NCBI GenBank assembly: GCA_902795265.1
Contig: CADBKM010000001.1
Span: forward strand, 28,456-92,455
Direction of reading: 5' to 3'
Source of the DNA: an uncultured Eubacteriales bacterium
Lineage (GTDB): Bacteria; Bacillota; Clostridia; Peptostreptococcales; Anaerovoracaceae
Length of the DNA: 64,000 nt
How positions within the stretch are numbered: the first letter of the stretch is position 1; each line of letters starts with the position of its first letter. The notes beneath the pieces were generated by a model, which did no database searches, was not told the origin of the DNA, and worked only from the letters and a program-made list of their open reading frames with translations. The translations under genes and the position numbers were made by a program. Below are positions 7,007-41,976 of the stretch, piece after piece.

Positions 7007-8386
7007 ATGGACTATGATGTAATTATTATCGGCGCGGGCCCTGGCGGAATATTCGCCGCTTACGAACTTACTAAAGAAGATAAGGGCCTTAAGGTAGGAG
7101 TATTTGAAGCCGGCAAAAAACTCGAAGAGAGAAAATGCCCTATAGACGGCGACAAGATAAAGTCGTGCATCAACTGTGCGAGCTGCTCCATCATGAGCGG
7201 ATTCGGCGGAGCTGGCGCGTTCTCTGACGGAAAGTACAATATCACGAACGACTTCGGCGGAACTCTCCACGAATACATCGGCAAGGATGAAGCCATCCGC
7301 CTGATGAAATATGTCGACGATATCAACATGTCGCACGGCGGCGAAGGCACGAAGCTGTACTCAACTGCCAACACATCCATCAAGAAGCTCTGCATGCAGA
7401 ACAAACTGCTGCTCCTGGATGCTTCCGTAAGGCATCTCGGGACAGACAAGAATTATGTGGTACTGGGCAATCTTTACGATGAACTGAAAGACAAAGTCGA
7501 CTTCAGGTTCAGAACACCTGTGGAGCACATCGAGGTCATCGACGGCGGCTACAAAGTCGTGACAGCGGATTCGGGCTTCACATGCTCAAAGTGCGTCGTA
7601 TCAGTCGGAAGGAGCGGAAGCAAATGGATCGAGACCGTCTGCAAAGAACTCGACATACCGACCGAATCCAACAGAGTCGACCTCGGCGTCAGAGTAGAGC
7701 TTCCGGCAGAGCTGTTCTCGCATCTGACAGATGAGCTCTATGAAAGCAAGATCGTCTACAGAACAGAGAAGTTTGAAGACAAGGTCAGGACCTTCTGCAT
7801 GAACCCTCGCGGAAGTGTCGTAAATGAGAATACAAACGGTATCGTGACCGTCAACGGCCACAGCTTCGAGGACCCTGAAAAGCAGACCGACAAGACCAAC
7901 TTTGCTCTGCTCGTATCGAAGCATTTTTCAGAGCCGTTCAAAGACAGCAACGGATACGGCGAGAGTATAGCCAGACTTTCGAACATGCTCGGCGGAGGAG
8001 TCATCGTACAGAGATTCGGCGACCTCATCCGTGGCAGAAGAACAAACTATAAAAGGCTTTCAGACAGTTTTGTAACACCTACGCTCAAGGCCGAACCGGG
8101 TGATCTCAGCCTCGTTCTGCCTAAGAGAATACTCGACGGCATCATCGAGATGATCTACGCGCTCGACAAGATCGCTCCGGGAACGGCTAACGACGACACG
8201 CTGTTATACGGAGTCGAGGTCAAGTTCTACAACATGCAGGTGAAGCTCGACGAGCATCTTGAGACCAAATACAAAGGCCTCTATATGATAGGAGACGGCA
8301 GCGGTGTTACACATTCACTGTCACACGCATCGGCAAGCGGTGTGTTCGTGGCCAGAGATATCATGAGATCTGCGGAGGGTCTCTAA
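7007..8386 (+). CDS. FAD-dependent protein (uncharacterised NAD(FAD)-utilising dehydrogenase family)
   Basis: N-terminal dinucleotide-binding fold DVIIIGAGPGGIFAA. C-terminal GDGSG motif typical of COG2509-like FAD proteins. Confidence 0.6.
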   Translation: MDYDVIIIGAGPGGIFAAYELTKEDKGLKVGVFEAGKKLEERKCPIDGDKIKSCINCASCSIMSGFGGAGAFSDGKYNITNDFGGTLHEYIGKDEAIRLMKYVDDINMSHGGEGTKLYSTANTSIKKLCMQNKLLLLDASVRHLGTDKNYVVLGNLYDELKDKVDFRFRTPVEHIEVIDGGYKVVTADSGFTCSKCVVSVGRSGSKWIETVCKELDIPTESNRVDLGVRVELPAELFSHLTDELYESKIVYRTEKFEDKVRTFCMNPRGSVVNENTNGIVTVNGHSFEDPEKQTDKTNFALLVSKHFSEPFKDSNGYGESIARLSNMLGGGVIVQRFGDLIRGRRTNYKRLSDSFVTPTLKAEPGDLSLVLPKRILDGIIEMIYALDKIAPGTANDDTLLYGVEVKFYNMQVKLDEHLETKYKGLYMIGDGSGVTHSLSHASASGVFVARDIMRSAEGL

Positions 8387-14354: not shown

Positions 14355-15456
14355 GACTAAGAAGGAACCATTGATCCATATCACGAAGAGAAAGATGATC
14401 TCTAAGAAACGTGAATGGGCAATTAGACTCGGCAGTATTTTGATCGCCCTTGTGGTCTGTGCCATTATAACGACGCTGACGACTCATCTTAACCCTATCA
14501 GCGTTTACGCTTCCATGATAGACGGATCGTTCGGCAGTGAGCGTAAGATCTGGGCACTGCTCAAGGAGCTCTCGATCCTGCTGATGGTGTCAGTAGCTCT
14601 GGCACCGGCATTCAAGATGAAGTTCTGGAACCTCGGCGGAGGCGGACAGGTAATGGCGGGTGTACTTGCCACGACCTCATGCATGATCCTCCTTGAAAAC
14701 AAAATGCCGAGCGGCGCTATCATCCTCGTTTCGCTGATCGCAGCGCTGGCTGCAGGTGCTCTGTGGGCATTCATCCCGGCATTCTGCAAGGCTAAATGGA
14801 ACACGAACGAGACACTTTTCACACTGATGATGAACTACGTAGCTACTCAGCTCGTAGCATACTTCATCATAAAATGGGAGTCGCCTAGAGGCTCGGGAAA
14901 GATCGGTATCATCAACCCGAATACCGAAGCCGGATGGCTTCCTGTCGTAGCAGGCAAGCAGTATCTGCTTCCTGTGCTGGTCGCCATAGTAATCACGATA
15001 TTCATGTATATCTACCTGAAATACAGCAAGCAGGGATATGAGCTTTCTGTAGTAGGTGAGAGCCAGAATACCGCCAGATACGTCGGCATCAATGTCGGCA
15101 AGGTAATCATCCGTACCCTGATTCTCTGCGGACTCATCTGCGGACTTACAGGATGGCTGCTCGTAGCCGGTACAGACCATACGATGACTACGACAATAGA
15201 GGCGGGCAGAGGATTCCTCGGAGTCATGGTAGCGTGGCTCGCGCACTTCAATCCTATCGGAATGGTGCTTTCCGGACTTCTGATGGTATTCATGAGCAGA
15301 GGCGGCGGAGAGATCTCCACAGCCTTCGGACTCAATAAATCATTCGGAGACATCCTCACCGGTATAATCCTGTTCTTCGTTATCGGAAGTGAATTCTTCA
15401 TCAACTATCAGATACACTTCCGCAAGTCGCACGGAAAGGAGGCTGCAGATGTTTAG
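14338..15456 (+). CDS. ABC transporter permease (nucleoside/sugar CUT2 type)
   Basis: 372 aa polytopic membrane protein that overlaps the ATPase stop. The start is ambiguous (GTG 14338, TTG 14347 or ATG 14395). Confidence 0.8.
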   Translation: MVQLDKTKKEPLIHITKRKMISKKREWAIRLGSILIALVVCAIITTLTTHLNPISVYASMIDGSFGSERKIWALLKELSILLMVSVALAPAFKMKFWNLGGGGQVMAGVLATTSCMILLENKMPSGAIILVSLIAALAAGALWAFIPAFCKAKWNTNETLFTLMMNYVATQLVAYFIIKWESPRGSGKIGIINPNTEAGWLPVVAGKQYLLPVLVAIVITIFMYIYLKYSKQGYELSVVGESQNTARYVGINVGKVIIRTLILCGLICGLTGWLLVAGTDHTMTTTIEAGRGFLGVMVAWLAHFNPIGMVLSGLLMVFMSRGGGEISTAFGLNKSFGDILTGIILFFVIGSEFFINYQIHFRKSHGKEAADV

Positions 15457-16435
15457 TCTTGTATCATTCATACCAAGAGCAATCGTGCAGAGTATCCCTC
15501 TGCTGCTCGGCTGCGTAGGTGAGACACTTAACGAGAAATCAGGCAGCCTTAACCTGGGTATTCCTGGCGTCATGTACGTAGGTGCCATATCCGGAGTAAT
15601 CGGTGCTTTCATGTATGAGAACTCAGGAGCAACATTTAATCCTGTAGTAGGACTCATAATACCGATATTTACCTGTATGCTCGGATCTTTGCTGATGGGG
15701 CTCATATTCTGTTTCCTGACAGTAACACTCAGAGCAAATCAGAACGTAACAGGACTTGCCATGACAACATTCGGCGTAGGTTTCGGTAACTTCTTCGGCG
15801 GATCCATAATCAAGCTGACCGGCGCTGAAGTACCTTCGATCGCACTTTCGGCAACGAGTAAGGCGTTCAAGACCGCGCTTCCGTTTGCGGGCAAGGCCGG
15901 AGTTGTCGGCAAATTGCTGCTGTCGTACAGCTTCATGACATACGTTGCGATAGCAATAGCGATCTTCACATCTTATGTGCTGAAAAGGACCCGCACAGGT
16001 CTTGAACTCAGAGCCGTAGGAGAGAATCCTGCTACAGCTGATGCTGCGGGTATCAATATCACCAGATATAAATACTTCTCGATCTGCATCGGATGTATGA
16101 TCGCGGGTATCGGCGGACTTTACTACGTACTTGACTACGCGAGCGGCGTATGGTCGAACGACGCGTTCGGTGACAGAGGATGGCTCGCTATCGCACTGGT
16201 AATATTCTCTATCTGGCGTCCGAACTGGGCTATCTGGGAATCGATGCTGTTCGGCGGACTCTATATTCTCTATCTGTACATCCCTACAGGCACAAACTTC
16301 GCCATGAAGGAGATATACAAGATGCTTCCGTATCTGGTAACGATCATCGTACTTATCGCTATCAGCCTCAAGAACAAGCACGAGAATCAGCCGCCTGAAG
16401 CTCTCGGTTTACCGTACTTCAGAGAAGACCGGTGA
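15449..16435 (+). CDS. ABC transporter permease (second subunit)
   Basis: Polytopic membrane protein. ATG at 15449 follows AAGGAGG and overlaps the preceding stop. The longer track ORF from 15389 lies inside the upstream gene. Confidence 0.8.
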   Translation: MFSLVSFIPRAIVQSIPLLLGCVGETLNEKSGSLNLGIPGVMYVGAISGVIGAFMYENSGATFNPVVGLIIPIFTCMLGSLLMGLIFCFLTVTLRANQNVTGLAMTTFGVGFGNFFGGSIIKLTGAEVPSIALSATSKAFKTALPFAGKAGVVGKLLLSYSFMTYVAIAIAIFTSYVLKRTRTGLELRAVGENPATADAAGINITRYKYFSICIGCMIAGIGGLYYVLDYASGVWSNDAFGDRGWLAIALVIFSIWRPNWAIWESMLFGGLYILYLYIPTGTNFAMKEIYKMLPYLVTIIVLIAISLKNKHENQPPEALGLPYFREDR

Positions 16436-16466
16436 TTAATCAATATCATTATCAATAACTGATCTC

Positions 16467-16701
16467 GAGGGCCTTAAAAGTGCATTCCCGGGAGTACGGC
16501 TCTCGCCTCGTTGCGGCTTAACGCAGCGGTACTAAGCTCTGGCATCGCGCAGACATCTGCGCTCGCCAATAATGCTGTCTACCGATCGTAACGGCGTTGC
16601 CGTAAGGTAGACAGCATTGATCTTCGGAGGCATAGCTCCTTCGATAATTGCTAAGTACCGGCTACCGCAAAGCCTCCCGTGCCCGCACTTTTAAGGCTCT
16701 T
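16467..16701 (+). other. 235-nt multi-hairpin intergenic element (candidate structured RNA leader or MITE-like element)
   Basis: Closing stem 16467-16483 / 16685-16701 (17 bp including G-U pairs). Nested pairs CGGGAG/CTCCCG and CGGTACTAAGC/GCTAAGTACCG. Internal hairpins at 16547-16562, 16571-16618 (13-bp perfect stem with an inner ACGGC/GCCGT hairpin) and 16626-16639. Confidence 0.6.
16476..16541 (+). repeat. 66-nt repeat copy A (left arm of the structured element)
   Basis: 63/66 identical to the reverse complement of 37579-37644. Confidence 0.85.
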
Positions 16702-16737
16702 TATCAGATTAAGATCGTGATAGGAAAGGAGGAATCC

Positions 16738-18444
16738 TTGAATTACGAAACTTTTAAAAAGCTGGCGCCTGCTGCGCTCGGCAAGGTAAAGGCCGATATT
16801 ATTTTTAAAAACTGCAGGATCGTCGATGTATTTACCGGCGAAGTAGTCGAGGGAAACATCGGCGTTAAGGACGGAACAATCATCGGCGTTTCCAGGTCGC
16901 TGAAGGGAAAGAAGGAGATTGATCTCGGAGGAGCATACATTGCTCCGGGATTCATCGATGCGCATCTGCACCTAGAGTCAACGATGGTCGCTCCTGCAGA
17001 GCTTGTAGCTACAGCTGCGTCATTCGGCACGACAACATTCATAGTCGATCCTCATGAGGCGGCAAATGTATCAGGCGCTGACGGAATACAGTACATTCTC
17101 GATCAGACAGAGGATTCAAATGCCAACGTATTTGTCATGATGCCTTCGTGCGTTCCTGCTACGAGTATCGACGACAACGGCTGCATGTTCGCGGCTAACG
17201 ACATGTATCCGTTTGTAGGAAGGGAGAGGATCCTCGGACTCGGAGAGGTAATGGACGCGGATGCAGTGCTTGACGGCGATCCGAGAATGTTTGCAAAGTT
17301 TGCACTGTTCGAGCATCAGACCGTCGACGGTCACGCTCCGTTCCTGCCAAACAAAAAGCTCTCGGCATATAAGCTTGCCGGTGTGGATACCGACCACGAG
17401 GCTTCATCCTTTGAGTACGCGCTCGAAGAAGCCAGAAGAGGAATCCACGTACATGTCCGCGAAGGTTCCGCAGCGCATAATGTCGATGACATAATCAGCG
17501 GTATCGTAAGGACCGGAATAGACACTGAGCATTTCAGCTTCTGCACTGATGACAAACACATCGAGGATATCCTCAGAGAAGGGCATATCGTATATAACGT
17601 CAGAAGAGCCGTCGAGCTGGGTCTTGACCCGTTCAAGGCGATCAAGATGGCTACCATAAATACTGCCAAGTGCTACGGCCTCAAACACATTGGCGCCATA
17701 GCACCGGGATACCAGGCAGATTTCGTTGTCTTCGACAATATGAAAGACTTCAATGTGCTCGATGTTTATTTTAAAGGCAAGCGGATCGACAGGGACGCTC
17801 CGGTAAAAGTAAAGAAGTGCCCTGCACACCTGAAGCGCACCGTTAATATAAGCAAAGTGCATCCTTATGACTTTGCTCTTCCGATCAGGTCGAAAAGCAC
17901 ACATGTCATCGGAATGGAGCCTAAGCAGATCGTTACAAACGACATCGTTGCACACTTCCCGAAGACTGAGAATTTCGTGCCGCATGACGGCTATCTTAAG
18001 ATCGCGGCCGTCGAAAGACATCAGAACAGCGGCAAGATAGGTGTTGCGGTAACGACAGGATACGGCATACGCGGAGGCGCGATAGCCTCATCGGTATCGC
18101 ATGATTCGCACAATATCATCGTAATAGGCGATAATGATGAAGACATCGCTATAGCCGTAAATGAAATCGCGCGAGTACAGGGCGGGTATACAGTTGTTGA
18201 GCACGGAAAGGTCTTTGAGACTCTGCCGCTGCCTATCATGGGCCTCATGACTGATGTCCACTTCGAAGAGGTAAATGAGAAGCTGAAAGTGATGAAAGAG
18301 AAAGCATATGAGATGGGCGTTTCGGAAGATTTCGATCCGTTCATAACACTTTCGTTCATGGCTCTTACAGTTATACCTGAGCTTCGAGTCACGCCGAGAG
18401 GACTTTACCGAGTTTCAGAGAAAGGATCCGGATTCATTAAATAA
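16738..18444 (+). CDS. ade: Adenine deaminase
   Basis: TTG start 5 nt after AAGGAGG. Amidohydrolase metal motif GFIDAHLHLEST, and the EVMD and HEASS regions typical of Ade. About 569 aa. Confidence 0.85.
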   Translation: MNYETFKKLAPAALGKVKADIIFKNCRIVDVFTGEVVEGNIGVKDGTIIGVSRSLKGKKEIDLGGAYIAPGFIDAHLHLESTMVAPAELVATAASFGTTTFIVDPHEAANVSGADGIQYILDQTEDSNANVFVMMPSCVPATSIDDNGCMFAANDMYPFVGRERILGLGEVMDADAVLDGDPRMFAKFALFEHQTVDGHAPFLPNKKLSAYKLAGVDTDHEASSFEYALEEARRGIHVHVREGSAAHNVDDIISGIVRTGIDTEHFSFCTDDKHIEDILREGHIVYNVRRAVELGLDPFKAIKMATINTAKCYGLKHIGAIAPGYQADFVVFDNMKDFNVLDVYFKGKRIDRDAPVKVKKCPAHLKRTVNISKVHPYDFALPIRSKSTHVIGMEPKQIVTNDIVAHFPKTENFVPHDGYLKIAAVERHQNSGKIGVAVTTGYGIRGGAIASSVSHDSHNIIVIGDNDEDIAIAVNEIARVQGGYTVVEHGKVFETLPLPIMGLMTDVHFEEVNEKLKVMKEKAYEMGVSEDFDPFITLSFMALTVIPELRVTPRGLYRVSEKGSGFIK

Positions 18445-19706: not shown

Positions 19707-19730
19707 CGATTGCTTTTTATAAACAAATCG
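19707..19730. promoter_or_regulatory. 24-nt AT-rich inverted repeat, candidate ModE-like operator (copy 1)
   Basis: CGATTGCTTTTTATAAACAAATCG. 23/24 identical to 21205-21228. Ends 13 nt before the regulator ATG. Confidence 0.55.
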
Positions 19731-19742
19731 GGAGGCGGAAGT

Positions 19743-20134: not shown

Positions 20135-21157
20135 ATGAAACTGATTAAGACCGAAGAAGCTGTAGGGCAGGTACTCTGTCACGACATAACTCAGATAATT
20201 AAGGACGTAACAAAGGATGCCGTATTCCGCAAGGGACATATCATAACGGAAGAGGACATTCCCGTCTTGCTGTCCGTGGGTAAGGACCACATATATGTCT
20301 GGGAAAACGATGAGAATATGATGCACGAGAATGAAGCTGCTGAAGTTCTCTGTACGATCTGCAAGGGCACCAATCTGACCCGCGGAGAAGTAAAGGAAGG
20401 CAAAATAGAACTGAGAGCTTCCTGCGACGGCGTACTGAAGATCGACAGGGAAAAGCTCAAAGCAGTGAATTCCTTCGGGCAGATGATGATAGCGACGCGC
20501 CATGGAGATTTTCCGGTCAGAAAGGGAGACAAAGTAGCCGGTACACGCATTATACCTCTTGTCATAGAGAAGGAAAAAATGCAGAAAGTACAGGAAATCT
20601 GCGGAGAGCGTCCGATACTTGATGTGATATCTTACGGATCGCGAAAGGCGGGTATCGTCACCACCGGTAATGAAGTTTACTATGGGCGGATCAAAGATAC
20701 ATTTACGCCTGTTATCGTTAAGAAACTTGAGGAGTTCGATGTTCAGACCGCTGCTCATAAGATCACGAATGACGACAGCGCAAATATTGAGAAATGCATC
20801 AGAGAGCTTATTCAGGAAGGCTGCGATCTCATCCTTTGCACAGGCGGAATGAGTGTGGACCCTGATGATAAAACTCCTCTGGCGATTCGCAATGTGTGCG
20901 GGAGCGCTGTGACATACGGAGCACCTGTACTGCCTGGAGCAATGTTCATGCTTGCATATTACGGAGACACAAATATCCCTGTAATGGGGCTCCCGGGATG
21001 TGTGATGTATGCAAAGAGAACGATCTTTGACCTGGTTCTTCCAAGGATCATGACCGGAGAAAAGCTGTGTAAAGAAGACTTCGACAGACTCGGAGAAGGC
21101 GGCCTTTGCCTCAACTGCGATATATGCACATTCCCGAACTGCGGCTTCGGTAAATAA
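20135..21157 (+). CDS. Molybdopterin-binding (MoeA/MoCF-biosynthesis-like) protein with Cys-rich C-terminal tail
   Basis: MoCF_biosynth-like core (GIVTTGNEV...LILCTGGMSVDPDDKTP). C-terminal CLNCDICTFPNC. Confidence 0.6.
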   Translation: MKLIKTEEAVGQVLCHDITQIIKDVTKDAVFRKGHIITEEDIPVLLSVGKDHIYVWENDENMMHENEAAEVLCTICKGTNLTRGEVKEGKIELRASCDGVLKIDREKLKAVNSFGQMMIATRHGDFPVRKGDKVAGTRIIPLVIEKEKMQKVQEICGERPILDVISYGSRKAGIVTTGNEVYYGRIKDTFTPVIVKKLEEFDVQTAAHKITNDDSANIEKCIRELIQEGCDLILCTGGMSVDPDDKTPLAIRNVCGSAVTYGAPVLPGAMFMLAYYGDTNIPVMGLPGCVMYAKRTIFDLVLPRIMTGEKLCKEDFDRLGEGGLCLNCDICTFPNCGFGK

Positions 21158-21204: not shown

Positions 21205-21228
21205 CGATTACTTTTTATAAACAAATCG
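21205..21228. promoter_or_regulatory. 24-nt AT-rich inverted repeat, candidate ModE-like operator (copy 2)
   Basis: CGATTACTTTTTATAAACAAATCG, 22 nt upstream of the modA ATG. Confidence 0.55.
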
Positions 21229-21250
21229 ATATGCCGAAAGGAGTGTAATT

Positions 21251-22108
21251 ATGAAAAAGAAACTGATTGCAGCCCTGATCATGCTTACGATGATTTTTGC
21301 ACTTGCTGCATGCGGAGGCGGAGAGGCAGCTCCTGCAGAAGAGGAAACTTCTGAGCAGGTCACTGTAAACGTATTTGCCGCAGCCTCACTCAGCAATGTA
21401 ATGGGTGAATTCGAAGCGTCATATGAAGAAGCAAATCCGGGAGTGGATATTGTGATCAATGCTGACAGCTCGGGAGCGTTGCTTACTCAGATACAGGAAG
21501 GCGCGCCTTGCGATGTGTTCTTCAGCGCTGCCCAGAAGCAGATGGACGAACTCGAGGGAGCCGGCATGGTTGTTGAAGGCACAAGAACAAACGTCGTTAA
21601 CAACCAGCTTGTAGTTGTTACTCAGCCTGACAGCGAAACAGCAGTTACAGGACTGGCAGACATCGCAAAGGCTAAGAGCATAGCTCTCGCTGATGGAAGT
21701 GTTCCTGTAGGCAAATATACAAGGCAGGCAATGATAAATCTCGGTCTTCTCGCTGAGGTTGAGGACCCTGCTGCCATAACCACTCAGGAAGTATCCGATC
21801 AGCTCGGAGGTGTTGAGATCAGTGAGCAGGGCAACGTCAGCAAGGTTCTGGCAGCTGTAGAAGAGGCATCCTGTGAGGTCGGAACTACGTATCTTTCAGA
21901 TACGATCGGTCATGAGGACAGCATAAAGATACTTGAGACTGTAGGCTATGATGTTACAGGAAACATTATCTATCCGGTTGCTCAGATCACAAATCAGGAC
22001 GCTGATGATGCTGAGTCTGCAGCAGCGGCAGATTTTATCGCTTACATAACAAATGATGAAGCAAAGGCTCTGTATCAGCAGTATGGATTTGACACTGATG
22101 TAGAGTAG
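21251..22108 (+). CDS. modA: Molybdate ABC transporter substrate-binding lipoprotein
   Basis: Lipobox LAAC. ModA-like core (VFAAASL...ADSSGAL..QI..GAPCDVFFSA). Confidence 0.8.
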   Translation: MKKKLIAALIMLTMIFALAACGGGEAAPAEEETSEQVTVNVFAAASLSNVMGEFEASYEEANPGVDIVINADSSGALLTQIQEGAPCDVFFSAAQKQMDELEGAGMVVEGTRTNVVNNQLVVVTQPDSETAVTGLADIAKAKSIALADGSVPVGKYTRQAMINLGLLAEVEDPAAITTQEVSDQLGGVEISEQGNVSKVLAAVEEASCEVGTTYLSDTIGHEDSIKILETVGYDVTGNIIYPVAQITNQDADDAESAAAADFIAYITNDEAKALYQQYGFDTDVE

Positions 22109-28721: not shown

Positions 28722-31061
28722 ATGTCCAACAAGTACATCGGAAAAGCGGTTACCAGGCACGACGCACACGATAAAGCCATGGGCCGCATCAAATACACCG
28801 ACGACATGTGCGACAAAGGCGCTCTTGTAATAAGGGTGCTGCATTCAACGGTTGCCAACGGCATCGTCAAGTCTATAGATACGAGTGAGGCAGAAAAGGT
28901 GCCGGGCGTTGTGCGCATCTTCACATGCTTCGACATAAAGGAGAAACACTATTATCCGACAGCAGGGCACCCGTGGTCGACAGATCCGAGCCATCAGGAT
29001 ATAGCGGACCGCCTGATAATGACAGACAGACCGCTGTTCTACGGAGACGATATCGGAGCGGTAGTAGCCGAGGATGAAGTAGCAGCTTCACAGGCTCTTC
29101 GCATACTTGAAAAGAGCGTGGAATACGAAGAGCTGCCGTTCGTGCTCGACGCGCAGGAGGCCATGAAGGAGGGCGCTCCTCAGCTCCATGAAAAATACCC
29201 TAACAACGTTCTGGCACATACCGAGATCCACATGGGAAGCGTCGAAGAGGCTATAAAGGAGCCGGGGCTCACCAAGGTGGAGGGCTGGTACGAGACACAG
29301 CCTGTGCAGCACTGCCATATCGAAAACTTCATCTGCTATGCATATGGTGAGGGCGGCAGGACCGTAGTGGTCACATCGACACAGATACCGCACATCGTGC
29401 GCCGTGTCATCGGACAGGCTCTCGGCATGGACTGGGGCAAGTTCAGAGTCATCAAACCTTATGTAGGCGGCGGATTCGGAAACAAGCAGGATGTTCTTTA
29501 TGAACCTCTCTGCGCGTGGATCAGCATACAGCTTGGAGGACGCCTCGTAAAACTTGACGTTCCCCGTGAAGAGACTTTCATAAGCAACCGGATCAGGCAT
29601 GCGATAAGGTATCACATAACTTCGTGGATGCGTCCTGACGGAAGCTTCGCGGCCCGTACCATCAAGGCGTGGTGCAACAACGGAGCGTACAGCTCTCACG
29701 GACACGCGATCGCGGCCAAGGGCCTGAACGCGTTCCCGCAGCTCTATCCTTGCGACAATATCGACGGCGAAACATGGACGGTCTATACCAACCGTTCCGT
29801 TGCAGGAGCGATGAGAGGATACGGCATGCCGCAGGCGAGCTACGCATTTGAATGCCACGCAGAGGACTGCGCACGGGCCATGAAAATGGATCCTCTCGAA
29901 TTCAGACGCAAGAATCTGATGCCGGTGGGTTATTACCACGCATTCTCGAAGAACGAATTATACAGTGACACGTTCAATCAGTGCTTCGACAAGGGCGCCG
30001 AGATAATCGGCTACTACGACAAAGTCGAAAAGTATAAGAACCAGACAGGTGACATCAGAAGGGGCATAGCCGTATCGACATTCTGGTACAACACCGCTGT
30101 TTACCCTATAGCGCTCGAGACGTCATCGTGCCGCATAGTAATGAACCAGGACGGATCGGTACAGTTCCAGCTGGGCGAGACGGAAATCGGCCAGGGAGCT
30201 GACACGGCAGCGGCACAGATGATAGCGGAGGAACTCAGCATACCTGTCGACATGGTCCATCCGGTATCGTGTCAGGACACCGACATTACTCCGTTCGGAA
30301 CGGGCGTATACGCGTCGAGAGGCACATATACTCTCGGCTTCTCGGTAAGGCAGACGGCGCTGCTGCTTAAAGAGAAAGTTCTCGAAGCGGCTCATCAGTT
30401 CACGAGAATGCCTGTGTACAACCTCGATCTTGTTGACGGTAAGATCGTAAGGACGACCGACGGACGCGAACTCATGACCATCGGCGAGCTGGCACTTTCG
30501 AAACTGTATACGACAGACGGCTCACAGCATCTGACAGCTGAGTCGACTTATCAGATAAAGTCGAACGCCTACTCATTCGGCTGCTGCTTCGCTGAGGTGG
30601 AAGTAGACATACCGATGTGCCGCGTGAGACTGCTCAACATCGTAAACGTGCACGACTGCGGACAGGTCATCAACCCGATACTGGCTTCGGGTCAGGTCCA
30701 CGGCGGAATGAGCATGGGCATAGGCTACGCCCTTTCGGAAAAACTCATGTGGGATGAAAAGACAGGCCGGCCGCTCAACAACAATCTGCTCGACTACAAG
30801 CTGTCCTCATTCATGGATCATCCTAGACTGAATGCGGCATTTGTAGAGAACTATGAACCTACGAGCGCTTACGGCACAAAGGGCCTCGGCGAACCGCCGG
30901 CATGCCCGGTCGCTCCTGCGATCAGAAATGCCATCGGTGCGGCTACCGGAGTGTACATCAACGAACTTCCGCTGTCGCCGCATACGCTCTTCCGTGAATT
31001 CACGGATGCGGGCCTCATAAACGACCCATGGAGAAATGAGCAGGGAAAGGAGAGCAAGTAG
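28722..31061 (+). CDS. xdhA: Xanthine dehydrogenase-type molybdopterin-binding large subunit
   Basis: 779 aa with aldehyde oxidase/xanthine dehydrogenase a/b-hammerhead and Mo-binding motifs (GGGFGNKQD, GETEIGQGADT, GLGEPP). Confidence 0.85.
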   Translation: MSNKYIGKAVTRHDAHDKAMGRIKYTDDMCDKGALVIRVLHSTVANGIVKSIDTSEAEKVPGVVRIFTCFDIKEKHYYPTAGHPWSTDPSHQDIADRLIMTDRPLFYGDDIGAVVAEDEVAASQALRILEKSVEYEELPFVLDAQEAMKEGAPQLHEKYPNNVLAHTEIHMGSVEEAIKEPGLTKVEGWYETQPVQHCHIENFICYAYGEGGRTVVVTSTQIPHIVRRVIGQALGMDWGKFRVIKPYVGGGFGNKQDVLYEPLCAWISIQLGGRLVKLDVPREETFISNRIRHAIRYHITSWMRPDGSFAARTIKAWCNNGAYSSHGHAIAAKGLNAFPQLYPCDNIDGETWTVYTNRSVAGAMRGYGMPQASYAFECHAEDCARAMKMDPLEFRRKNLMPVGYYHAFSKNELYSDTFNQCFDKGAEIIGYYDKVEKYKNQTGDIRRGIAVSTFWYNTAVYPIALETSSCRIVMNQDGSVQFQLGETEIGQGADTAAAQMIAEELSIPVDMVHPVSCQDTDITPFGTGVYASRGTYTLGFSVRQTALLLKEKVLEAAHQFTRMPVYNLDLVDGKIVRTTDGRELMTIGELALSKLYTTDGSQHLTAESTYQIKSNAYSFGCCFAEVEVDIPMCRVRLLNIVNVHDCGQVINPILASGQVHGGMSMGIGYALSEKLMWDEKTGRPLNNNLLDYKLSSFMDHPRLNAAFVENYEPTSAYGTKGLGEPPACPVAPAIRNAIGAATGVYINELPLSPHTLFREFTDAGLINDPWRNEQGKESK

Positions 31062-31062
31062 T

Positions 31063-31950
31063 ATGTATGACATAAAAGCACTGTATGAAGCTGAAAGCGT
31101 GCAGGATGCCATCAGGCTGCTGCAGGAACACCCTGAAGCGCAGATACTCGCCGGCGGATCCGATGTGCTCGTCCAGATAAGAGAGGGGCGCAGGGCAGGT
31201 GTCGAGCTCGTCAGCATCTATATGCTCGATGAGCTGCGCGGAGTCAGTATCGATGAAGAAGAGAACATCCGCATCGGCTCTCTCACAAGCTTCTCACATA
31301 TAACAAAAGACCCGATAATCCAGAAATATATCAACGTTCTCGGCGAAGCCGTCGATATGGTAGGCGGCCCGCAGATAAGGGCGATCGGAACCATCGGAGG
31401 AAACACATGCAACGGAGTCACATCGGCGGACTCAGCATCGACTCTGATGGCATGGGACGCGATCATAGAGCTGACAGGTCCTGAAGGAGTAAGACGTGTT
31501 CCTATCAAGGACTTCTACATCAAGGCCAAAGTAGTGGATATCAGGCCTGCCGAGATACAGACGGCAATACTTATCCCGAAGGAATCGTATGACAGATGCT
31601 TCGGACACTACATCAAGTATTCGATGAGGAATGCTCTCGACATCGCGACGACCGGCTGCTCAGTAAACGTAAGGCTGAGCGACGATAAGAAGACCTTCGA
31701 GCGCGTACGCATAGGATACGGAGTAGCCGCTCCGATTCCTTGCCGGGCTTATACAGCCGAAGCATTCCTTAACGGAAAAGAGATAAACGATGAGAATATA
31801 AAGAAATTCGCGGAAACGGTACTCGAAGACATAAATCCGCGTGACAGCTGGCGTGCCGGCAAGGCTCTTCGTCAGCATATCTCGGTAGTCATGGCCGAAA
31901 GGGCTCTGCGTGAGTCGATCAGGCTGGCAGGAGGTGTGGTAAATGAGTAA
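31063..31950 (+). CDS. xdhB: Xanthine dehydrogenase FAD-binding subunit
   Basis: ATG at 31063 directly after the xdhA stop with GGAAAGGAGAG upstream. FAD_binding_5-like motifs (LAGGSDVLV, GTIGGN). Confidence 0.8.
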   Translation: MYDIKALYEAESVQDAIRLLQEHPEAQILAGGSDVLVQIREGRRAGVELVSIYMLDELRGVSIDEEENIRIGSLTSFSHITKDPIIQKYINVLGEAVDMVGGPQIRAIGTIGGNTCNGVTSADSASTLMAWDAIIELTGPEGVRRVPIKDFYIKAKVVDIRPAEIQTAILIPKESYDRCFGHYIKYSMRNALDIATTGCSVNVRLSDDKKTFERVRIGYGVAAPIPCRAYTAEAFLNGKEINDENIKKFAETVLEDINPRDSWRAGKALRQHISVVMAERALRESIRLAGGVVNE

Positions 31951-32494: not shown

Positions 32495-32521
32495 AAAACG
32501 GGCATAGCAAGGAGAATGATT

Positions 32522-33328: not shown

Positions 33329-33330
33329 AC

Positions 33331-36213: not shown

Positions 36214-36234
36214 CTCAGGAAGGGAGGATGAAAC

Positions 36235-37575
36235 ATGCTATTAGTAGGTAACGGACAACTTATAACAAGGGATCCGGAATTCCCTTATCTGAAGGATGGC
36301 GCTGTCGTTATCGACGGTGAAGTCATCAAGGCGGTAGGCACGCTTGCAGACATGAAAGCTGCTTATCCTGACGCGGAATTCGTGGATGCTAAGGGCGGCA
36401 TCATAATGCCGGGCCTTATAAATGCGCATACGCATATCTATTCGGGCCTTGCGAGAGGACTTGCGATAGCCGGTCATAACCCGACAAACTTCTTCGAGAT
36501 CCTCGACGGCATGTGGTGGAACATCGACCGCCACCTGACTATCGACGGCACAAAGGCAAGTGCTTACGCAACCATACTCGACTGCATCAGAGACGGTGTC
36601 ACGACCATCTTTGACCATCACGCAAGCTTTTGCGAGATCCCTGGGTCGCTCTTCGCGATAAAAGATGTCGCAAAAGAGCTCGGCATGAGATCGTGCCTCT
36701 GCTATGAGGTATCCGAAAGAGACGGCGAGGAGAAGACTCTTCAGAGTATTCAGGAGAATGCGGACTTCGCCAAGTGGGCGCTCAAGGAAGACGACGACAT
36801 GATAAAGGCCATGTTCGGCGGACACGCACTCTTCACCATCTCGGACAAGACATTCGAAAAGATGGTAGAGGCAAACGACGGCATGACAGGATTCCACATC
36901 CACGTAGCAGAGGGCATGAACGACGTATATGACAGCCTGCGCAACTACGGATGCAGACCGGTCAACAGACTGCTGTACAACGGACTCCTCGGTGAGAAGA
37001 CTCTGCTGGGTCACTGCATACATGTCAGCCCTGCTGAGATGGACATCATCAAAGAGACAGGCACAATGGTCGTAAACAACCCTGAGTCCAACATGGGTAA
37101 CGCCGTAGGCTGCGCACCTGTGCTGCAGATGATGGCAAAGGGCATCACAGTCGGAATGGGAACCGATGCTTACACCCACGACATGCTCGAGAGCTTAAAG
37201 GTGTTCCTCATAATCCAGAGACACAACGCGGCAATGCCAAACGTTGCATGGGGCGAAGACTGCACGATGCTCTTCGAAAACAACAGAAAGATCGCTGCCA
37301 AGTACTTCAAGAAGCCTCTGGGCATCCTGAAGGAGGGCGCTGCAGCAGACGTCATCGTAATGGATTACAAGCCGTTCACACCGTTCTCAGACGAGAACAT
37401 CGACGGCCACATGATATTCGGCATGATGGGCAAGAACTGCAGAACGACCATCATCAACGGAAAGGTGCTGTATAAGGACAGAGAGTTCGTAGATATCGAT
37501 GAAGAGGCAATCAATGCCTGGACACTCGAGCAGAGCAAGAAGCTCTGGGGCGAACTCAATCACAGAGAGTATTAA
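36235..37575 (+). CDS. ssnA: SsnA-type aminohydrolase
   Basis: Amidohydrolase HxH motif (GLINAHTHIYSGLARG) and overall SsnA-like N-terminus. 446 aa. Confidence 0.8.
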   Translation: MLLVGNGQLITRDPEFPYLKDGAVVIDGEVIKAVGTLADMKAAYPDAEFVDAKGGIIMPGLINAHTHIYSGLARGLAIAGHNPTNFFEILDGMWWNIDRHLTIDGTKASAYATILDCIRDGVTTIFDHHASFCEIPGSLFAIKDVAKELGMRSCLCYEVSERDGEEKTLQSIQENADFAKWALKEDDDMIKAMFGGHALFTISDKTFEKMVEANDGMTGFHIHVAEGMNDVYDSLRNYGCRPVNRLLYNGLLGEKTLLGHCIHVSPAEMDIIKETGTMVVNNPESNMGNAVGCAPVLQMMAKGITVGMGTDAYTHDMLESLKVFLIIQRHNAAMPNVAWGEDCTMLFENNRKIAAKYFKKPLGILKEGAAADVIVMDYKPFTPFSDENIDGHMIFGMMGKNCRTTIINGKVLYKDREFVDIDEEAINAWTLEQSKKLWGELNHREY

Positions 37576-37578
37576 TGG

Positions 37579-37644
37579 CAGAGTTTAGCACCGCTGCGTT
37601 AAACCGCAACGAGGCGAGAGCCGTACTCCCGGGAATGCACTTTT
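37579..37644 (-). repeat. 66-nt repeat copy B (inverted relative to copy A)
   Basis: Its reverse complement is 63/66 identical to 16476-16541. It lies between the ssnA stop and the ygfK RBS. Confidence 0.85.
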
Positions 37645-37679
37645 GATGCAAACCGTAAACGCGGAAGGAGGATAGATAT

Positions 37680-40673
37680 ATGAGCGATATTATGAGACCG
37701 ATGCCCTATGAACATTTGCTGAACTGGGTAATCGACGAATATGAAAAAAGCGGAAGCATCTTCGGTGTTTCAAAGCTTGTAAAACACGATAACGGACAGG
37801 CTCTTCCTATCTTCGATGAGAAGATCGAGTCGCCTTTCGGACCTGCTGCCGGCCCTAACACTCAGCTGGCTCAGAATATAATCGCTTCTTATGCAGCGGG
37901 CTCAAGGTTCTTCGAGCTCAAGACCGTACAGGACATGGACGGTCCTGATCTGGCGGCGTGCGTTGCAAAGCCGTGTATCACGGCTCACGACGAGTGCTAC
38001 AACTGCGAGTGGTCGACAGAGCTCTATGTTCATCAGGCATTCGACGAATATGTAAAGGCCTGGTTCATCTGCAAGATTCTCTCGAAGGAACTCGGACTTG
38101 GCGATCCTGACGGCTTTGTCTTCAACATGTCGGTAGGTTACGACCTTGAGGGCATCAAGAAGGAAAAGGTAGACCGCTACATCGACGGCATGAAGGACGC
38201 TTCGGAAACAGAGGTGTTCAGGAACGCAATGGCGGTATCGCTTCAGGCTGTAAAAGACGGCAGACTCAAGAATGTCGATGAAGACTTCATAAAGGCGATC
38301 CCTGCAAGGATCTCCGAGTCGATTACAGAGTCGACACTTCACGGCTGCCCGCCTGATGAGATCGAGCGTATCGCTTCGTATCTGATCACAGAGAAGGGAC
38401 TCAACACTTTCATCAAGTGCAACCCTACGCTGCTCGGATATGAGTTTGCAAGAGAGAGACTGGATTCACTCGGATTCAGCTATATCGCATTTGACGATCA
38501 TCACTTCCTCGAAGACCTTCAGTGGAAGGATGCAGTCCCGATGTTCGAGAGACTGCAGAAGCTCTGTGACGACAGGGGACTCGAGTTCGGAGTCAAGCTC
38601 ACGAACACATTCCCTGTAGACGTAAAGGCAGGAGAGCTTCCTTCAGAAGAAATGTACATGTCGGGACGCAGCCTGTTCCCGCTGACAATAGAACTCGCAA
38701 GAAGGATCACAAAGCAGTTCGACGGCAAGCTGAGGATCAGCTTCTCTGGCGGTGCTGATTACTTCAACATCAAGGAGATCTTTGACGCAGGCATCTGGCC
38801 TATCACAATGGCTACGACAGTCCTGAAACCGGGCGGCTATCAGAGAATGTCACAGATCGGCGAGAAGCTCATGGACTGCGGATGCGACAGATTCGCAGGC
38901 GTAGACCTCGCTAAGGTCGAGAAGCTGGTAGAGGTATCGCAGCAGAAGAGGAACCAGAAGCCGATCAAGCCGCTGCCTGACAGAAAGAACGGCGAAGACC
39001 TGCCGATGTTTGACTGCTTCCACGCTCCTTGCAGCGGCGGATGCCCGATCAATCAGGACATCCCTGCATATCTCGAAGCAATGGAGAAGGGTGACAGCGA
39101 GACAGCTCTTAAGATAATCCTCGAGAAGAACGCTCTTCCGTTCACGACAGGAACCATCTGCCCGCATACATGCGCTGACAGATGCATGAGAAACCACTAT
39201 GAGTCAGCTCTCCGCATCAGAGAGGTGAAGCTGATGGCAGCAGAGGCAGCCTGCGCCAAGGTGCTGCCTGGACTCAAAGCTGCTGAAGCATGCGGCAAGA
39301 AGGTTGCGATCATCGGCGGTGGCCCTGCAGGACTCGCGACAGCTTCGTTCCTTTCAAGAGCAGGCGCTGATGTAACAGTATTTGAAAAACAGGATAAGAT
39401 GGGCGGCGTGCCTCGCTATGTGATCCCTGGATTCAGGATCGGTGATGAGGCTCTCGACAGCGATGTGGCTCTCTGCTCTGCATACGGCGCAAAGATGGTC
39501 ACAGGCCGCGAGATCGCATCCGTACAGGAGCTTAAGGATGAAGGCTTCGAAGACATCGTAGTCTGCATCGGAGCATGGGCTCACGGCCGCAAGGCTCTGA
39601 AGTACGGCGATGAGATCGACGCACTCGAATTCCTTAAGGCAGTAAAGGCTGCACCGGGAGCATGCGATCTGGGAACAGACGTAGTCGTAATCGGCGGCGG
39701 CAACACAGCCATGGACGTAGCAAGAGCTGCGAAGAGACAGCCTGGAGTAGAGCACGTACGCCTGGTATACAGAAGAGACAGACGCAACATGCCGGCTGAT
39801 GAAGAAGAGCTGGTAATGGCGATCGAAGATGGTGTAGAGTTCATGGAACTCCTCGCACCTGTAGGCACAGAAAACGGCATGCTGAAGTGCGAGATCAACG
39901 TTCTCGGCGAGCCTGACGCAAGCGGCAGACGTTCACCTGTCGGAACAGGCGAGTTCTGTGAGGTGCCTGCAACTGCAGTCATCTGCGCTGTTGGTGAGCG
40001 TATCATGACAGGTCTCTACGAGGCCGCAGGCGCTGAGCTGACAGACAAGGGAGCTCCTGTAGTTGATGAAAACCTCATGACTACGGTACCTGGTCTCTAT
40101 GCAGCAGGAGACTGCCGCAGAGGTCCTGCTACAGTAGTCAAGGCTATCGCGGATGCTCAGACAGTTGCTGCAGCTATCACCGGAGCTAAGTTCGACGCAT
40201 GCGAGGCTGCAAATGCAGCAGGCGACATGGATAAGCTGCTCGGCAGAAAGGGCAGCCTGGCTGATCCGCCTGCAGATAAGGCTGACGACAGATGCCTCGG
40301 CTGCGCTACAGTATGCGAGGTCTGCACAGACGTCTGCCCGAACAGAGCAAACGTTGCGATAGACGTTCCGGGCTTCGATATGCCTCAGATCCTGCATGTG
40401 GACGGCATGTGCAACGAGTGCGGCAACTGCGCCGTATTCTGCCCGTACAGCGGACGTCCTTACAAGGATAAATTCACTCTGTTCTGGAGCGAAGAGGACT
40501 TCAAAGACAGCGAGAACAACGGATTCCTGCCGCTCGAAGGCACAAAGGTATGCGTAAGACTCTTCGGCAATGCCGCTGAGTACGATATCGCTGACCCTGC
40601 ATGCACACTTCCAAGCGGAGTTCTGGCATTCATCAAAGCTGTGGAAGAGAATTATAAGTATCTTATTGGCTAG
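37680..40673 (+). CDS. ygfK: YgfK-type multidomain Fe-S flavoprotein oxidoreductase
   Basis: 997 aa. DHOD/DPD-like barrel region, GltD-like nucleotide folds (VAIIGGGPAGL, VVVIGGGNTAMD), and a C-terminal 2x[4Fe-4S] region (CLGCATVCEVCTDVCP, CNECGNCAVFCP). Confidence 0.85.
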   Translation: MSDIMRPMPYEHLLNWVIDEYEKSGSIFGVSKLVKHDNGQALPIFDEKIESPFGPAAGPNTQLAQNIIASYAAGSRFFELKTVQDMDGPDLAACVAKPCITAHDECYNCEWSTELYVHQAFDEYVKAWFICKILSKELGLGDPDGFVFNMSVGYDLEGIKKEKVDRYIDGMKDASETEVFRNAMAVSLQAVKDGRLKNVDEDFIKAIPARISESITESTLHGCPPDEIERIASYLITEKGLNTFIKCNPTLLGYEFARERLDSLGFSYIAFDDHHFLEDLQWKDAVPMFERLQKLCDDRGLEFGVKLTNTFPVDVKAGELPSEEMYMSGRSLFPLTIELARRITKQFDGKLRISFSGGADYFNIKEIFDAGIWPITMATTVLKPGGYQRMSQIGEKLMDCGCDRFAGVDLAKVEKLVEVSQQKRNQKPIKPLPDRKNGEDLPMFDCFHAPCSGGCPINQDIPAYLEAMEKGDSETALKIILEKNALPFTTGTICPHTCADRCMRNHYESALRIREVKLMAAEAACAKVLPGLKAAEACGKKVAIIGGGPAGLATASFLSRAGADVTVFEKQDKMGGVPRYVIPGFRIGDEALDSDVALCSAYGAKMVTGREIASVQELKDEGFEDIVVCIGAWAHGRKALKYGDEIDALEFLKAVKAAPGACDLGTDVVVIGGGNTAMDVARAAKRQPGVEHVRLVYRRDRRNMPADEEELVMAIEDGVEFMELLAPVGTENGMLKCEINVLGEPDASGRRSPVGTGEFCEVPATAVICAVGERIMTGLYEAAGAELTDKGAPVVDENLMTTVPGLYAAGDCRRGPATVVKAIADAQTVAAAITGAKFDACEAANAAGDMDKLLGRKGSLADPPADKADDRCLGCATVCEVCTDVCPNRANVAIDVPGFDMPQILHVDGMCNECGNCAVFCPYSGRPYKDKFTLFWSEEDFKDSENNGFLPLEGTKVCVRLFGNAAEYDIADPACTLPSGVLAFIKAVEENYKYLIG

Positions 40674-40691
40674 TATTTTAAGGTAATAACC

Positions 40692-41483: not shown

Positions 41484-41499
41484 AAGGTGGGGAATACAG

Positions 41500-41958: not shown

Positions 41959-41976
41959 GCGAAGGGAGGTAAAGAA

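What the first reader, a model, noticed from the sequence alone, without database searches (positions are those of the whole stretch)
16467..16701. 235-nt multi-helix element upstream of adenine deaminase, with one arm duplicated in inverted orientation upstream of ygfK
Seen in sequence:
- The 302-nt gap between the ABC permease and ade is non-coding and folds on paper into a closed structure: a 17-bp closing stem, two further long-range helices and three or four internal hairpins, one with a perfect 13-bp stem.
- Its left arm (16476-16541) reappears 21 kb away at 37579-37644 as a reverse complement with 63/66 identity, in the 104-nt gap between ssnA and ygfK.
- On the + strand, both loci therefore present the ...CTCCCG..GCACTTTT end of the element about 40-55 nt before a strong RBS of a purine-catabolic gene.

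Inference, with three options:
- A MITE/REP-like mobile repeat.
- A cis-regulatory leader (attenuator or riboswitch-like) shared by purine genes.
- A processing or stability element.

I could not match it to any RNA family I know.
Basis: seen in the sequence. Interest (0 to 1): 0.65.

Follow-up and report, generated by a model that had tools for sequence, protein, structure and literature searches.

The report
Ornate hairpin repeat, not purine switch
The folded 235-base element upstream of adenine deaminase is real, but it is one copy of a previously undescribed hairpin-forming repeat scattered between unrelated housekeeping genes of rumen Clostridia; it comes and goes between strains, so it is not a purine-sensing control RNA.

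Summary
The 302-nt gap holds a 249-nt multi-helix palindrome (-133.5 kcal/mol, z = -8.4), and its left arm recurs inverted, 63/66 identical, between ssnA and ygfK.

It is not specific to purine genes. An invariant 21-mer from its core finds 95 metagenome stretches, and an 18-mer finds 7 loci in rumen Clostridiales and Mogibacterium MAGs. These copies lie between gyrB-gyrA, ligA-pcrA, mfd, addA, atpB and others: 149 flanking proteins hit 179 Pfam families, none recurrent.

Every copy has a nearly invariant asymmetric core of about 60 nt plus a small side hairpin. The arms around it differ in sequence from copy to copy but always pair.

Close relatives have empty sites at both window loci. Strain-level empty alleles exist at two other loci, and an orientation flip at a third. 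Copy B is a decaying half copy.

There is no Rfam, plasmid, phage or literature match. No promoter, canonical terminator or transposase was found near it.

Best reading: a REP/ERIC/REPIN-like non-autonomous repeat that is passively co-transcribed and acts locally as a large intercistronic hairpin. The agent that moves it is unknown.

It is a new family of a familiar kind, of moderate interest.

The parts
16459..16707 (.). Full copy A of the repeat, a long form of 249 nt counting the outermost CTGAT/ATCAG pairs. It fills most of the 302-nt permease-ade gap.
   Evidence: Fold; inverted repeat I2; matches the family HMM.
16468..16494 (+). Left outer arm (P1 plus P2 GGGAG). It pairs with 16674-16700.
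   Evidence: I2: 27 nt, 81% complementary. Homologous arms occur in L006 and L042.
16674..16700 (+). Right outer arm (P2' CTCCC plus P1').
16498..16507 (-). Side hairpin GGC-TCTC-GCC. On the reverse strand its loop reads GAGA, a GNRA tetraloop.
   Evidence: 96 of 96 resolved copies read GNRA on the reverse strand. The stem shows compensatory changes.
16511..16516 (+). P3 5' arm TTGCGG. It pairs with CCGCAA at 16665-16670. This arm differs between subfamilies.
   Evidence: Family comparison; partner-swap test.
16521..16541 (+). Invariant core 21-mer ACGCAGCGGTACTAAGCTCTG, the 5' strand of the core helix with an AG bulge and an A.A mismatch.
   Evidence: Used for the metagenome scan, 95 stretches. 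Core helix counts.
16542..16568 (+). Apical hairpin. It varies in length and sequence between copies while its stem stays paired.
   Evidence: pairs 113-126 and 114-123 show compensatory changes.
16569..16651 (+). Optional two-hairpin module of about 80 nt. It includes the perfect 13-bp stem 16571-16583/16606-16618 and the ACGGCGTTGCCGT tip.
   Evidence: Found in 10 distinct elements, including window copy A (one appears under two locus ids), at five different insertion points and in both orientations relative to the core, plus one weaker second occurrence in L007 and one occurrence away from any core in L072.
16650..16662 (+). Conserved 3' core motif GCTAAGTACCGGC, the 3' strand of the core helix.
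   Evidence: Present as CNAAG[GT]NNCGGC in 96 of 103 anchor hits; 5 of the 7 misses are contig-end cuts or near-variants. It was not used to find the copies.
37575..37649 (-). Copy B, a decaying half copy. It keeps the left outer arm, the side hairpin, the 5' arm of P3 and a diverged core 21-mer, and it abuts the ssnA stop codon.
   Evidence: A full copy occupies the same site in L006. A strain in run X2 carries a different internal deletion.
15389..16435 (+). Context: ABC permease gene upstream of copy A.
16738..18444 (+). Context: adenine deaminase gene downstream of copy A.
36235..37575 (+). Context: ssnA, upstream of copy B.
37680..40673 (+). Context: ygfK, downstream of copy B.

Best explanation
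Copy A is a full member, and copy B a half-deleted member, of a dispersed non-coding palindromic repeat family of rumen Clostridia (Mogibacterium-like and other uncultured lineages).

A unit has three parts:
- an almost invariant, asymmetric core of about 60 nt, forming a bulged helix with fixed internal loops;
- a small side hairpin;
- arms whose sequence is free as long as they pair.
Optional small hairpin modules can be nested into it.

Inferred: units are gained, lost, partly deleted and flipped at intergenic sites, much as REP/REPIN, ERIC, BOX or Correia repeats are. The conserved core is probably the handle for a trans-acting host or element enzyme that acts on a folded single strand, most likely the strand that carries the GNRA loop. 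That enzyme is unidentified.

In this window the element has no sensor role for purines. It is simply transcribed with the ABC-importer/ade operon. There it replaces the plain intercistronic hairpin that relatives carry, so its likely local effect is that of a very stable intercistronic hairpin: partial termination, an RNase target, or a 3' stabiliser of the upstream message.

Shown: family membership, dispersal, structure conservation, and polymorphism.
Inferred: the way it moves, the strand that matters, and any effect on ade.
For: Dispersal:
- The 18-mer scan finds 7 family loci in rumen Clostridiales and Mogibacterium MAGs. The other 10 hits match the roughly 17 I calculated as expected by chance for an 18-mer.
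- The 21-mer finds 95 metagenome stretches, and some contigs carry 2-3 copies.
- An HMM of the core finds 116 hits, including diverged extra copies and three copies within 600 bp in L018.
- Core depth is 6-33 times flank depth in DNA runs that hold the window organism. At least 3 further copies sit in contigs of the same depth class.
- In other runs, unit depth is 300-800 against flanks of about 10.

Unrelated neighbours:
- gyrB-gyrA, ligA-pcrA, mfd, addA, atpB and others.
- 149 flanking proteins hit 179 Pfam families; none occurs more than 3 times and no transposase is among the 25 commonest listed.

Structure kept while sequence is free:
- Own-arm duplexes average -48.5 kcal/mol against -28.0 for arms swapped between subfamilies (p = 2e-15), with at least 12 arm types.
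- In the core, 95.5% of cells are paired against 45% or less in slid controls, and 5 pairs show compensatory changes.
- Further compensatory changes appear in diverged copies.

Presence/absence:
- The permease-ade gap is 85-90 nt, with only a small hairpin, in syntenic relatives whose Ade is 92, 88 and 85% identical.
- The ssnA-ygfK gap is 11-25 nt in four relatives, holds a 61-nt remnant in a fifth, and a full copy in L006.
- Strain-level empty alleles occur at L077 and L104.

Orientation:
- Orientation is mixed, 29:17 among co-directional gene pairs.
- It is flipped at one locus between strains, and between L004 and L006 at the ssnA-ygfK site.

No autonomous expression signals: consensus scans find no promoter or terminator near either copy. 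In the same sample, RNA depth over the core is no higher than over the flanks (X36 against X5).
Against: - It does not behave as a classical transposon. The ends vary and the centre is conserved, no clear target-site duplication is seen, and no transposase, RAYT or other recurring partner gene turns up among 149 neighbours.
- Within subfamilies the inner unit is 90-94% identical, while the flanks just beyond it are unrelated between copies yet complementary within each copy. Simple cut-and-paste does not explain this. It could instead mean that each copy's core is under selection.
- Some features favour one strand, as in functional RNAs: GNRA loops in 96 of 96 resolved copies, G.A rather than U.C at one pair in 46 of 68, and better folding of the reverse strand in 72 of 84 copies.
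- Other features do not. One core pair is U-A in 37 and U.G in 31 copies on the other strand, and G.U counts are similar on both strands.
- Any effect on ade or ygfK expression is untested.
Confidence: 0.62

Rival explanations
1. A functional structured RNA (or single-stranded DNA) module that is under selection in every copy. Examples would be a recognition site for an RNase, an RNA-binding regulator or another enzyme, spread through operons to set message processing or stability. Mobility would then only be the way it spreads.
For: - The core is nearly invariant across at least 12 arm subfamilies while the arms have diverged to random-level identity.
- The side hairpin reads GNRA in 96 of 96 resolved copies.
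- There is a G.A pair on the same strand.
- The reverse strand folds better in 72 of 84 copies, p = 1e-11.
- Copies favour co-directional and convergent gaps over divergent ones: 46, 18 and 6.
- The core is present in metatranscriptome contigs, and one contig runs from the permease gene into the element.
Against: - Orientation relative to transcription is 29:17 and flips between strains, so many copies would be read on the wrong strand.
- The optional module occurs in both orientations relative to the core.
- The element is dispensable at all four loci where alleles could be compared.
- RNA depth is no higher than in the flanks.
- There is no promoter.
Confidence: 0.2
2. A DNA-level host element: a binding or structural site for a chromosomal protein such as gyrase, a nucleoid protein or a recombinase, as proposed for BIMEs. 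Alternatively an inverton-like switch, in which the unit flips between its flanking inverted repeats.
For: - Orientation polymorphism occurs at the same locus between strains and between L004 and L006.
- Every unit lies inside inverted repeats specific to its own site.
- G.U counts are symmetric on the two strands.
Against: - No promoter or terminator lies in the conserved unit that flipping could turn on or off.
- The flanking repeats are not conserved, so a site-specific invertase would have nothing fixed to recognise.
- The flipped L065 allele also differs by deletions, so it is not a clean inversion.
- The GNRA pattern argues for a single-stranded form.
Confidence: 0.1
3. A purine-responsive riboswitch or attenuator shared by ade and ygfK.
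For: Both window copies lie just upstream of purine-catabolic genes, and the structure is large and closed.
Against: - The family is overwhelmingly next to non-purine genes.
- Copy B is an inverted half copy, and it varies between strains.
- Relatives with the same genes lack the element.
- No Rfam riboswitch matches.
Confidence: 0.02

Closest known systems
ERIC (enterobacterial repetitive intergenic consensus) elements
   Same: - Imperfect palindromes of more than 100 nt in transcribed intergenic regions.
- Found in either orientation.
- The centre is the best-conserved part.
- Longer variants are made by insertions at fixed internal sites.
- No known transposase.
(The ERIC properties come from my own knowledge of the literature. 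The matching features here are shown.)
   Different: There is no sequence similarity and the phylum is different. Here the arms are interchangeable and specific to each site. There is also a GNRA side hairpin and a fixed bulged core helix.
REP/BIME elements and REPINs (REP doublets forming hairpins), mobilised by RAYT transposases
   Same: - High-copy hairpin-forming repeats between genes.
- Gained and lost between strains.
- Often found in clusters (three copies in L018).
- Thought to act as folded single strands.
   Different: REPs are 20-40 nt, and in REPINs the conserved REP units form the ends. Here the conserved part is a core of about 60 nt at the tip. A RAYT gene could not be searched for, and none is among the 25 commonest Pfam families of the 149 neighbours.
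BOX elements of Streptococcus pneumoniae and Correia (CREE) elements of Neisseria
   Same: Modular, highly structured intergenic repeats. They are co-transcribed with neighbouring genes and can alter message stability or termination.
   Different: Correia elements have conserved terminal inverted repeats and a TA target duplication. BOX elements are built from boxA/B/C modules. Neither pattern is seen here.
Classical MITEs (deletion derivatives of insertion sequences)
   Same: Small, non-coding, with terminal inverted repeats, and polymorphic for insertion.
   Different: In a MITE the terminal repeats are the conserved part and match a parent insertion sequence. Here the ends are at random-level identity between subfamilies, and no parent element was found.

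Membership tests
Dispersed intergenic palindromic repeats (the REP/ERIC/BOX kind, in the broad sense) | Many copies per genome at unrelated intergenic sites | tested here: met
   The depth ratios suggest tens of copies, as an upper bound.
Dispersed intergenic palindromic repeats (the REP/ERIC/BOX kind, in the broad sense) | Hairpin-forming, non-coding, and present or absent between close relatives | tested here: met
   Fold. Empty sites.
REP/REPIN-RAYT system | A RAYT (Y1 transposase) gene in the genome, typically flanked by the repeats | not testable with these tools
No such family is among the 25 commonest families listed for the 149 flanking proteins.
REP/REPIN-RAYT system | A conserved short (20-40 nt) palindromic unit forming the ends of the doublet | tested here: not met
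   The conserved part is central and about 60 nt, and the ends vary.
Classical MITE | Terminal inverted repeats conserved between copies | tested here: not met
   Outer arms are 0.50-0.53 identical between subfamilies, against 0.515 for random sequence.
Classical MITE | Target-site duplication | tested here: inconclusive
   A possible ACAG at the L006 site and TCC in subfamily b are the only candidates. The empty alleles differ by more than a clean insertion.
Riboswitch or cis-regulatory leader | Fixed orientation upstream of functionally related genes | tested here: not met
Any Rfam 15 family | A covariance-model match | tested here: not met
   None at gathering threshold in the window. None relevant at E <= 10 over the element. 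None for seven other members at E <= 1.
Intrinsic terminator | A G+C-rich stem followed by a run of T | tested here: not met
   None near either window copy. Runs of T follow only a minority of family copies, and boundary calling was imperfect.
Inverton (phase-variable invertible segment) | Conserved inverted repeats recognised by an invertase, and both orientations within one population | tested here: inconclusive
   Both orientations occur at one locus, but in different samples. The flanking repeats are specific to each site and not conserved. No invertase was looked for.

The most novel reading that the evidence does not exclude
The family may be the cis element of an undescribed hairpin-based mobility or inversion system of Clostridia. 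In this reading:
- A trans-acting enzyme recognises the invariant asymmetric core and its GNRA side hairpin on one folded single strand (DNA or RNA).
- It moves or flips the unit.
- By a process not yet known, such as snap-back synthesis or template switching, the unit ends up embedded in a new palindrome specific to its site.
- Smaller hairpin modules nest into it by the same route.
Probability: 0.2. Interest if true: 0.7.

Novelty: new member of a known kind. Interest (0 to 1): 0.38.

Why it matters
For annotation, it removes a tempting false lead. The structure upstream of ade and ygfK should not be catalogued as a purine riboswitch.

For genome biology, it defines a widespread repeat family of uncultured rumen Clostridia that is in neither Rfam nor the literature I could search. 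The definition is a core ACGCAGCGGTACTAAGCTCTG ... CTAAGKRCCGGC, a GNRA side hairpin, and free arms that pair. The family breaks assemblies, creates strain-level structural variants, changes gene ends (at L104), and places very stable hairpins inside operons.

Three features do not fit textbook transposition and could point to an unstudied way of moving hairpin DNA: the conserved tip inside site-specific palindromes, the nested modules, and the flipping in place.

Tried and rejected
That ruled out an own-genome census, an orientation-versus-replication analysis and a RAYT or nuclease search.

**Scans that found nothing**
- The first collection scans, with CCCGGGAGTACGGCTCTCGCC, found nothing in viral or metagenome contigs. 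That stretch is specific to one subfamily.
- The viral scan with the invariant 21-mer also found nothing.
- blastn against plasmids and phages gave no match.
- A full-text search for the core sequence gave no paper. Keyword searches gave nothing specific, and the 224-motif paper has no matching motif by keyword.

**Analyses that failed technically**
- RNAalifold on a MAFFT alignment recovered only the core, because the arms cannot be aligned by sequence. I replaced it with an alignment-free partner-swap test.
- Two attempts to call the outer boundary automatically and score runs of T failed: the minimum-energy boundary ran too far out, and an X-drop extension stopped at junctions. The idea that the outer stem is a terminator is therefore neither shown nor general.

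**Ideas tested and dropped or left open**
- That the unit inserts into loops of pre-existing hairpins. This fits the ade site, where relatives have a small hairpin. It does not fit the ssnA-ygfK, L077 or L104 empty sites.
- That insertion makes an inverted copy of the flank. The only support is a 7-nt match at L077; there is none at L104.
- An apparent enrichment of UvrD-type helicase genes next to copies. It came mostly from spurious ORFs that read through the conserved core. Five real cases remain (pcrA three times, addA twice). In the unbiased tally it is 3 of 149.

**Resemblances considered and rejected by inspection or Rfam:** group II intron domain V, SRP Alu domain, kink-turn or loop E motifs, CIRCE, and ssoA CS-6.

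Full report
**1. The observation**

The sequence is as described. The permease ORF ends at 16435. ade begins at TTG 16738 behind an AGGAGG ribosome-binding site and scores 552.8 bits on TIGR01178, above the 472.5 cutoff. The gap is therefore 302 nt.

The gap folds to -133.5 kcal/mol, against -87.3 +/- 5.5 for dinucleotide shuffles (z = -8.44, 0 of 100 as good). The fold has a long closing stem, further long-range helices and internal hairpins, including a perfect 13-bp stem.

The terminal arms 16468-16494 and 16674-16700 are 81% complementary. A 24-mer shared by the two copies has no matches expected by chance. That second copy lies in the 104-nt gap between ssnA and ygfK, both confirmed by NCBIfam. 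Rfam 15 has no match at gathering threshold and none relevant at E <= 10.

**2. It belongs to a large family**

- An 18-mer from the shared arm gave 17 loci in species-representative genomes. Ten are in G+C-rich, unrelated genomes with no similarity beyond the 18-mer; I calculated about 17 hits expected by chance. Seven are true relatives, in uncultured rumen Clostridiales MAGs and a goat Mogibacterium MAG.
- Comparing those seven showed an invariant 21-mer, ACGCAGCGGTACTAAGCTCTG. It occurs in 95 metagenome stretches. Several contigs carry two or three copies.
- A profile HMM of the core finds 116 hits in the 766 kb fetched. These include diverged copies that lack the exact 21-mer, and three copies within 600 bp in L018.
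- It finds none in 11 orthologous control loci.
- IMG/VR, PLSDB and the phage collection have none.
- Seven other members have no Rfam match, and the core sequence occurs in no searchable paper.

The window organism is a bovine rumen bacterium. Its Ade is 88% identical to proteins labelled Mogibacterium sp..

**3. Anatomy**

On the window's + strand, every unit reads as follows:
- outer arm;
- P2;
- a small side hairpin, AC(G)GC-TCTC-GC(C)T;
- P3;
- ACGCAGCGGTACTAAGCTCTG;
- an apical hairpin;
- CARTCGCTAAGKRCCGGC;
- P3';
- P2';
- outer arm.

The two conserved blocks form one helix with a 2-nt bulge and an A.A mismatch. On 68 copies, 95.5% of cells in the core structure pair, against 45% or less when the partners are slid. 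Five pairs show compensatory changes. More diverged copies add CGG/CCG to CAG/CUG and GC/GC to GU/AC.

The arms cannot be aligned between subfamilies: their identity is 0.50-0.53, against 0.515 for random sequence. They always pair, though. Each copy's own arms give -48.5 kcal/mol on average, against -28.0 for arms swapped between subfamilies. In 69 of 85 copies the own pairing beats all sampled swaps (p = 2e-15), and there are at least 12 arm types.

Copy A is a long form. Its extra 80 nt (16569-16651, containing the 13-bp stem) is an optional two-hairpin module. The module is found in 10 distinct elements including copy A, at five different insertion points and in both orientations relative to the core.

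**4. Which strand matters**

The signals are mixed but lean towards the reverse strand.
- The side-hairpin loop reads GAGA (63 copies), GCGA (18), GGGA (10), GCAA (4) or GUAA (1) on the reverse strand. That is GNRA in all 96 resolved copies.
- One core pair that is U.C on the + strand in 46 of 68 copies is G.A on the reverse strand.
- The reverse strand folds better in 72 of 84 copies, by 5.9 kcal/mol on average (p = 1e-11).
- Against this, another core pair is U-A in 37 and U.G in 31 copies on the + strand.
- G.U counts are similar on the two strands, 310 and 371.

**5. Where the copies sit**

Among 109 non-redundant copies, 70 could be classified by their flanking genes. Of these, 46 lie between co-directional genes, split 29:17 by orientation (p = 0.10). 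Eighteen lie between convergent genes and 6 between divergent genes.

The neighbours are ordinary housekeeping genes: gyrB-gyrA, ligA-pcrA, mfd, addA, atpB, acyl-CoA dehydrogenase, sulfatase and others. A tally of 149 flanking proteins gives 179 Pfam families. None occurs more than three times, and no transposase or integrase is among the commonest.

**6. Gain, loss, decay and flipping**

At the ade site, syntenic relatives with Ade 92, 88 and 85% identical have a gap of only 85-90 nt, holding a plain G+C-rich hairpin of 11-12 bp.

At the ssnA-ygfK site:
- Four relatives (SsnA 89-96% identical) have a gap of 11-25 nt that holds just the ribosome-binding site.
- One relative has a 61-nt remnant resembling an outer arm.
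- L006 has a full copy in the same orientation as copy B.
- L004 has a full copy in the opposite orientation.

Copy B is therefore the surviving half of a copy that was once complete. A strain in run X2 carries a different internal deletion of it.

At strain level (flanks about 98% identical):
- The L077 copy, arms included, is replaced by 9 nt in one sample.
- The L104 copy is replaced by 34 nt in two samples, which also changes the last eight codons of the upstream gene.
- At L065 the unit lies in the opposite orientation in two samples and in the reference orientation in two others.

Depth over the unit is 6-33 times the flanks in runs that hold the window organism, where at least three further copies sit in contigs of the same depth class. 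In other runs it is roughly 15-100 times the flanks. That suggests tens of copies per genome. It is an upper bound, because other organisms in the samples contribute.

**7. Expression**

Consensus scans find no promoter and no terminator near either window copy. Rumen metatranscriptome contigs do contain the core, and one contig runs from the permease gene into the element. In the one sample with both DNA and RNA, RNA depth over the core (about 3-5) equals that of the flanking genes, while DNA depth there is 2-3 times the flanks (X36 against X5). This looks like passive co-transcription, not a highly expressed small RNA. The contigs carry no strand information and the coverage is thin.

**8. 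Interpretation**

The element is a member of a dispersed, structured, non-coding repeat family. In behaviour it is closest to ERIC and to REP/REPIN, BOX and Correia elements. The purine-leader idea is refuted.

It is not a textbook MITE. The ends vary and the centre is conserved, and I found no parent element and no clear target duplication.

The most likely local role of copy A is that of a very stable intercistronic hairpin, standing where relatives have a plain one. This is inferred, not shown.

**9. What remains unexplained**

Within a subfamily the inner unit is 90-94% identical, and similarity then drops abruptly to random. Yet the unrelated flanks of each copy are complementary to each other: -16 to -19 kcal/mol for a copy's own flanks, against -8.3 for swapped ones.

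- Pre-existing hairpins as targets would fit the ade site. They do not fit the three other empty sites.
- Inverted copying of a flank has only a 7-nt hint, at L077.
- Template-switch correction between arms, or selection for pairing, also remain possible.

Together with the nested modules and the flips, this leaves room for an undescribed hairpin-directed mechanism. I put that at about 0.2.

**10. Earlier notes of this scan**

Earlier notes list look-alike elements in other genomes. They also record several follow-ups that classed similar rumen hairpin repeats as REP/BIME/REPIN-like, including one described as a conserved tip with interchangeable stems. I treated these as leads only.

Noticed in passing
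L104:5933-5967; also L018:7045-7075: A second, unrelated short repeat of about 35 nt, GATCCTTCGCT(T/C)CGCTCAGGATGA, which forms a hairpin. Its depth reaches about 4,500 against flanks of about 18 in one rumen run. It lies next to the family copy and is missing together with it in the empty L104 allele.
   Followed up: partly
L018:6818-6840 and 7488-7512: Two copies of the perfect palindrome AATTGTTTCACGTGAAACAATT, which looks like a CRP/FNR-type box. They bracket a 690-nt gap holding three family copies, upstream of an addA-like helicase-nuclease gene.
   Followed up: no
window 19707-19740 and 21205-21238: A 34-nt direct repeat, 85% identical (CGATTRCTTTTTATAAACAAATCG...), upstream of two + strand ORFs (20135-21157 and 21251-22108) in the purine cluster. 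It could be a shared operator or promoter region.
   Followed up: no
window 37578-37588 (strain in run X2): A near-identical strain carries a different deletion derivative of copy B. It keeps the arm GCATCAAAAGTGCGGGCACGGGAG joined directly to TAGCACCGCTGCG.
   Followed up: partly
L104:5906-5932: In the allele that carries the repeat, the upstream gene ends ...EDLRKLEIGD*. In the empty allele it ends ...EDLADLSL*. The inserted block therefore supplies a new C-terminal tail and stop codon.
   Followed up: partly
L077:2472-2619: A stretch inside the 3' part of the upstream gene has depth up to 530 against about 10 for the rest of the locus. It is either another repeat or a very widely conserved domain.
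   Followed up: no
L087 (element) and L051: L087 is a copy whose two P3 arms do not match each other. L051 and L032 share a left flank but have different right flanks. These are either recombinants between copies or assembly chimeras at the repeat.
   Followed up: no
window 28722-46264: The window is a large selenium-dependent purine-catabolism cluster. It holds SsnA, YgfK, a Se-dependent molybdenum hydroxylase (TIGR03313) and a selenium-dependent xanthine dehydrogenase (TIGR03311), and almost all genes are on the + strand.
   Followed up: partly
L024 and L092, right of the element: A short tandem repeat, units of CTCAAGTCTCCAAT, directly follows the element's right arm.
   Followed up: no
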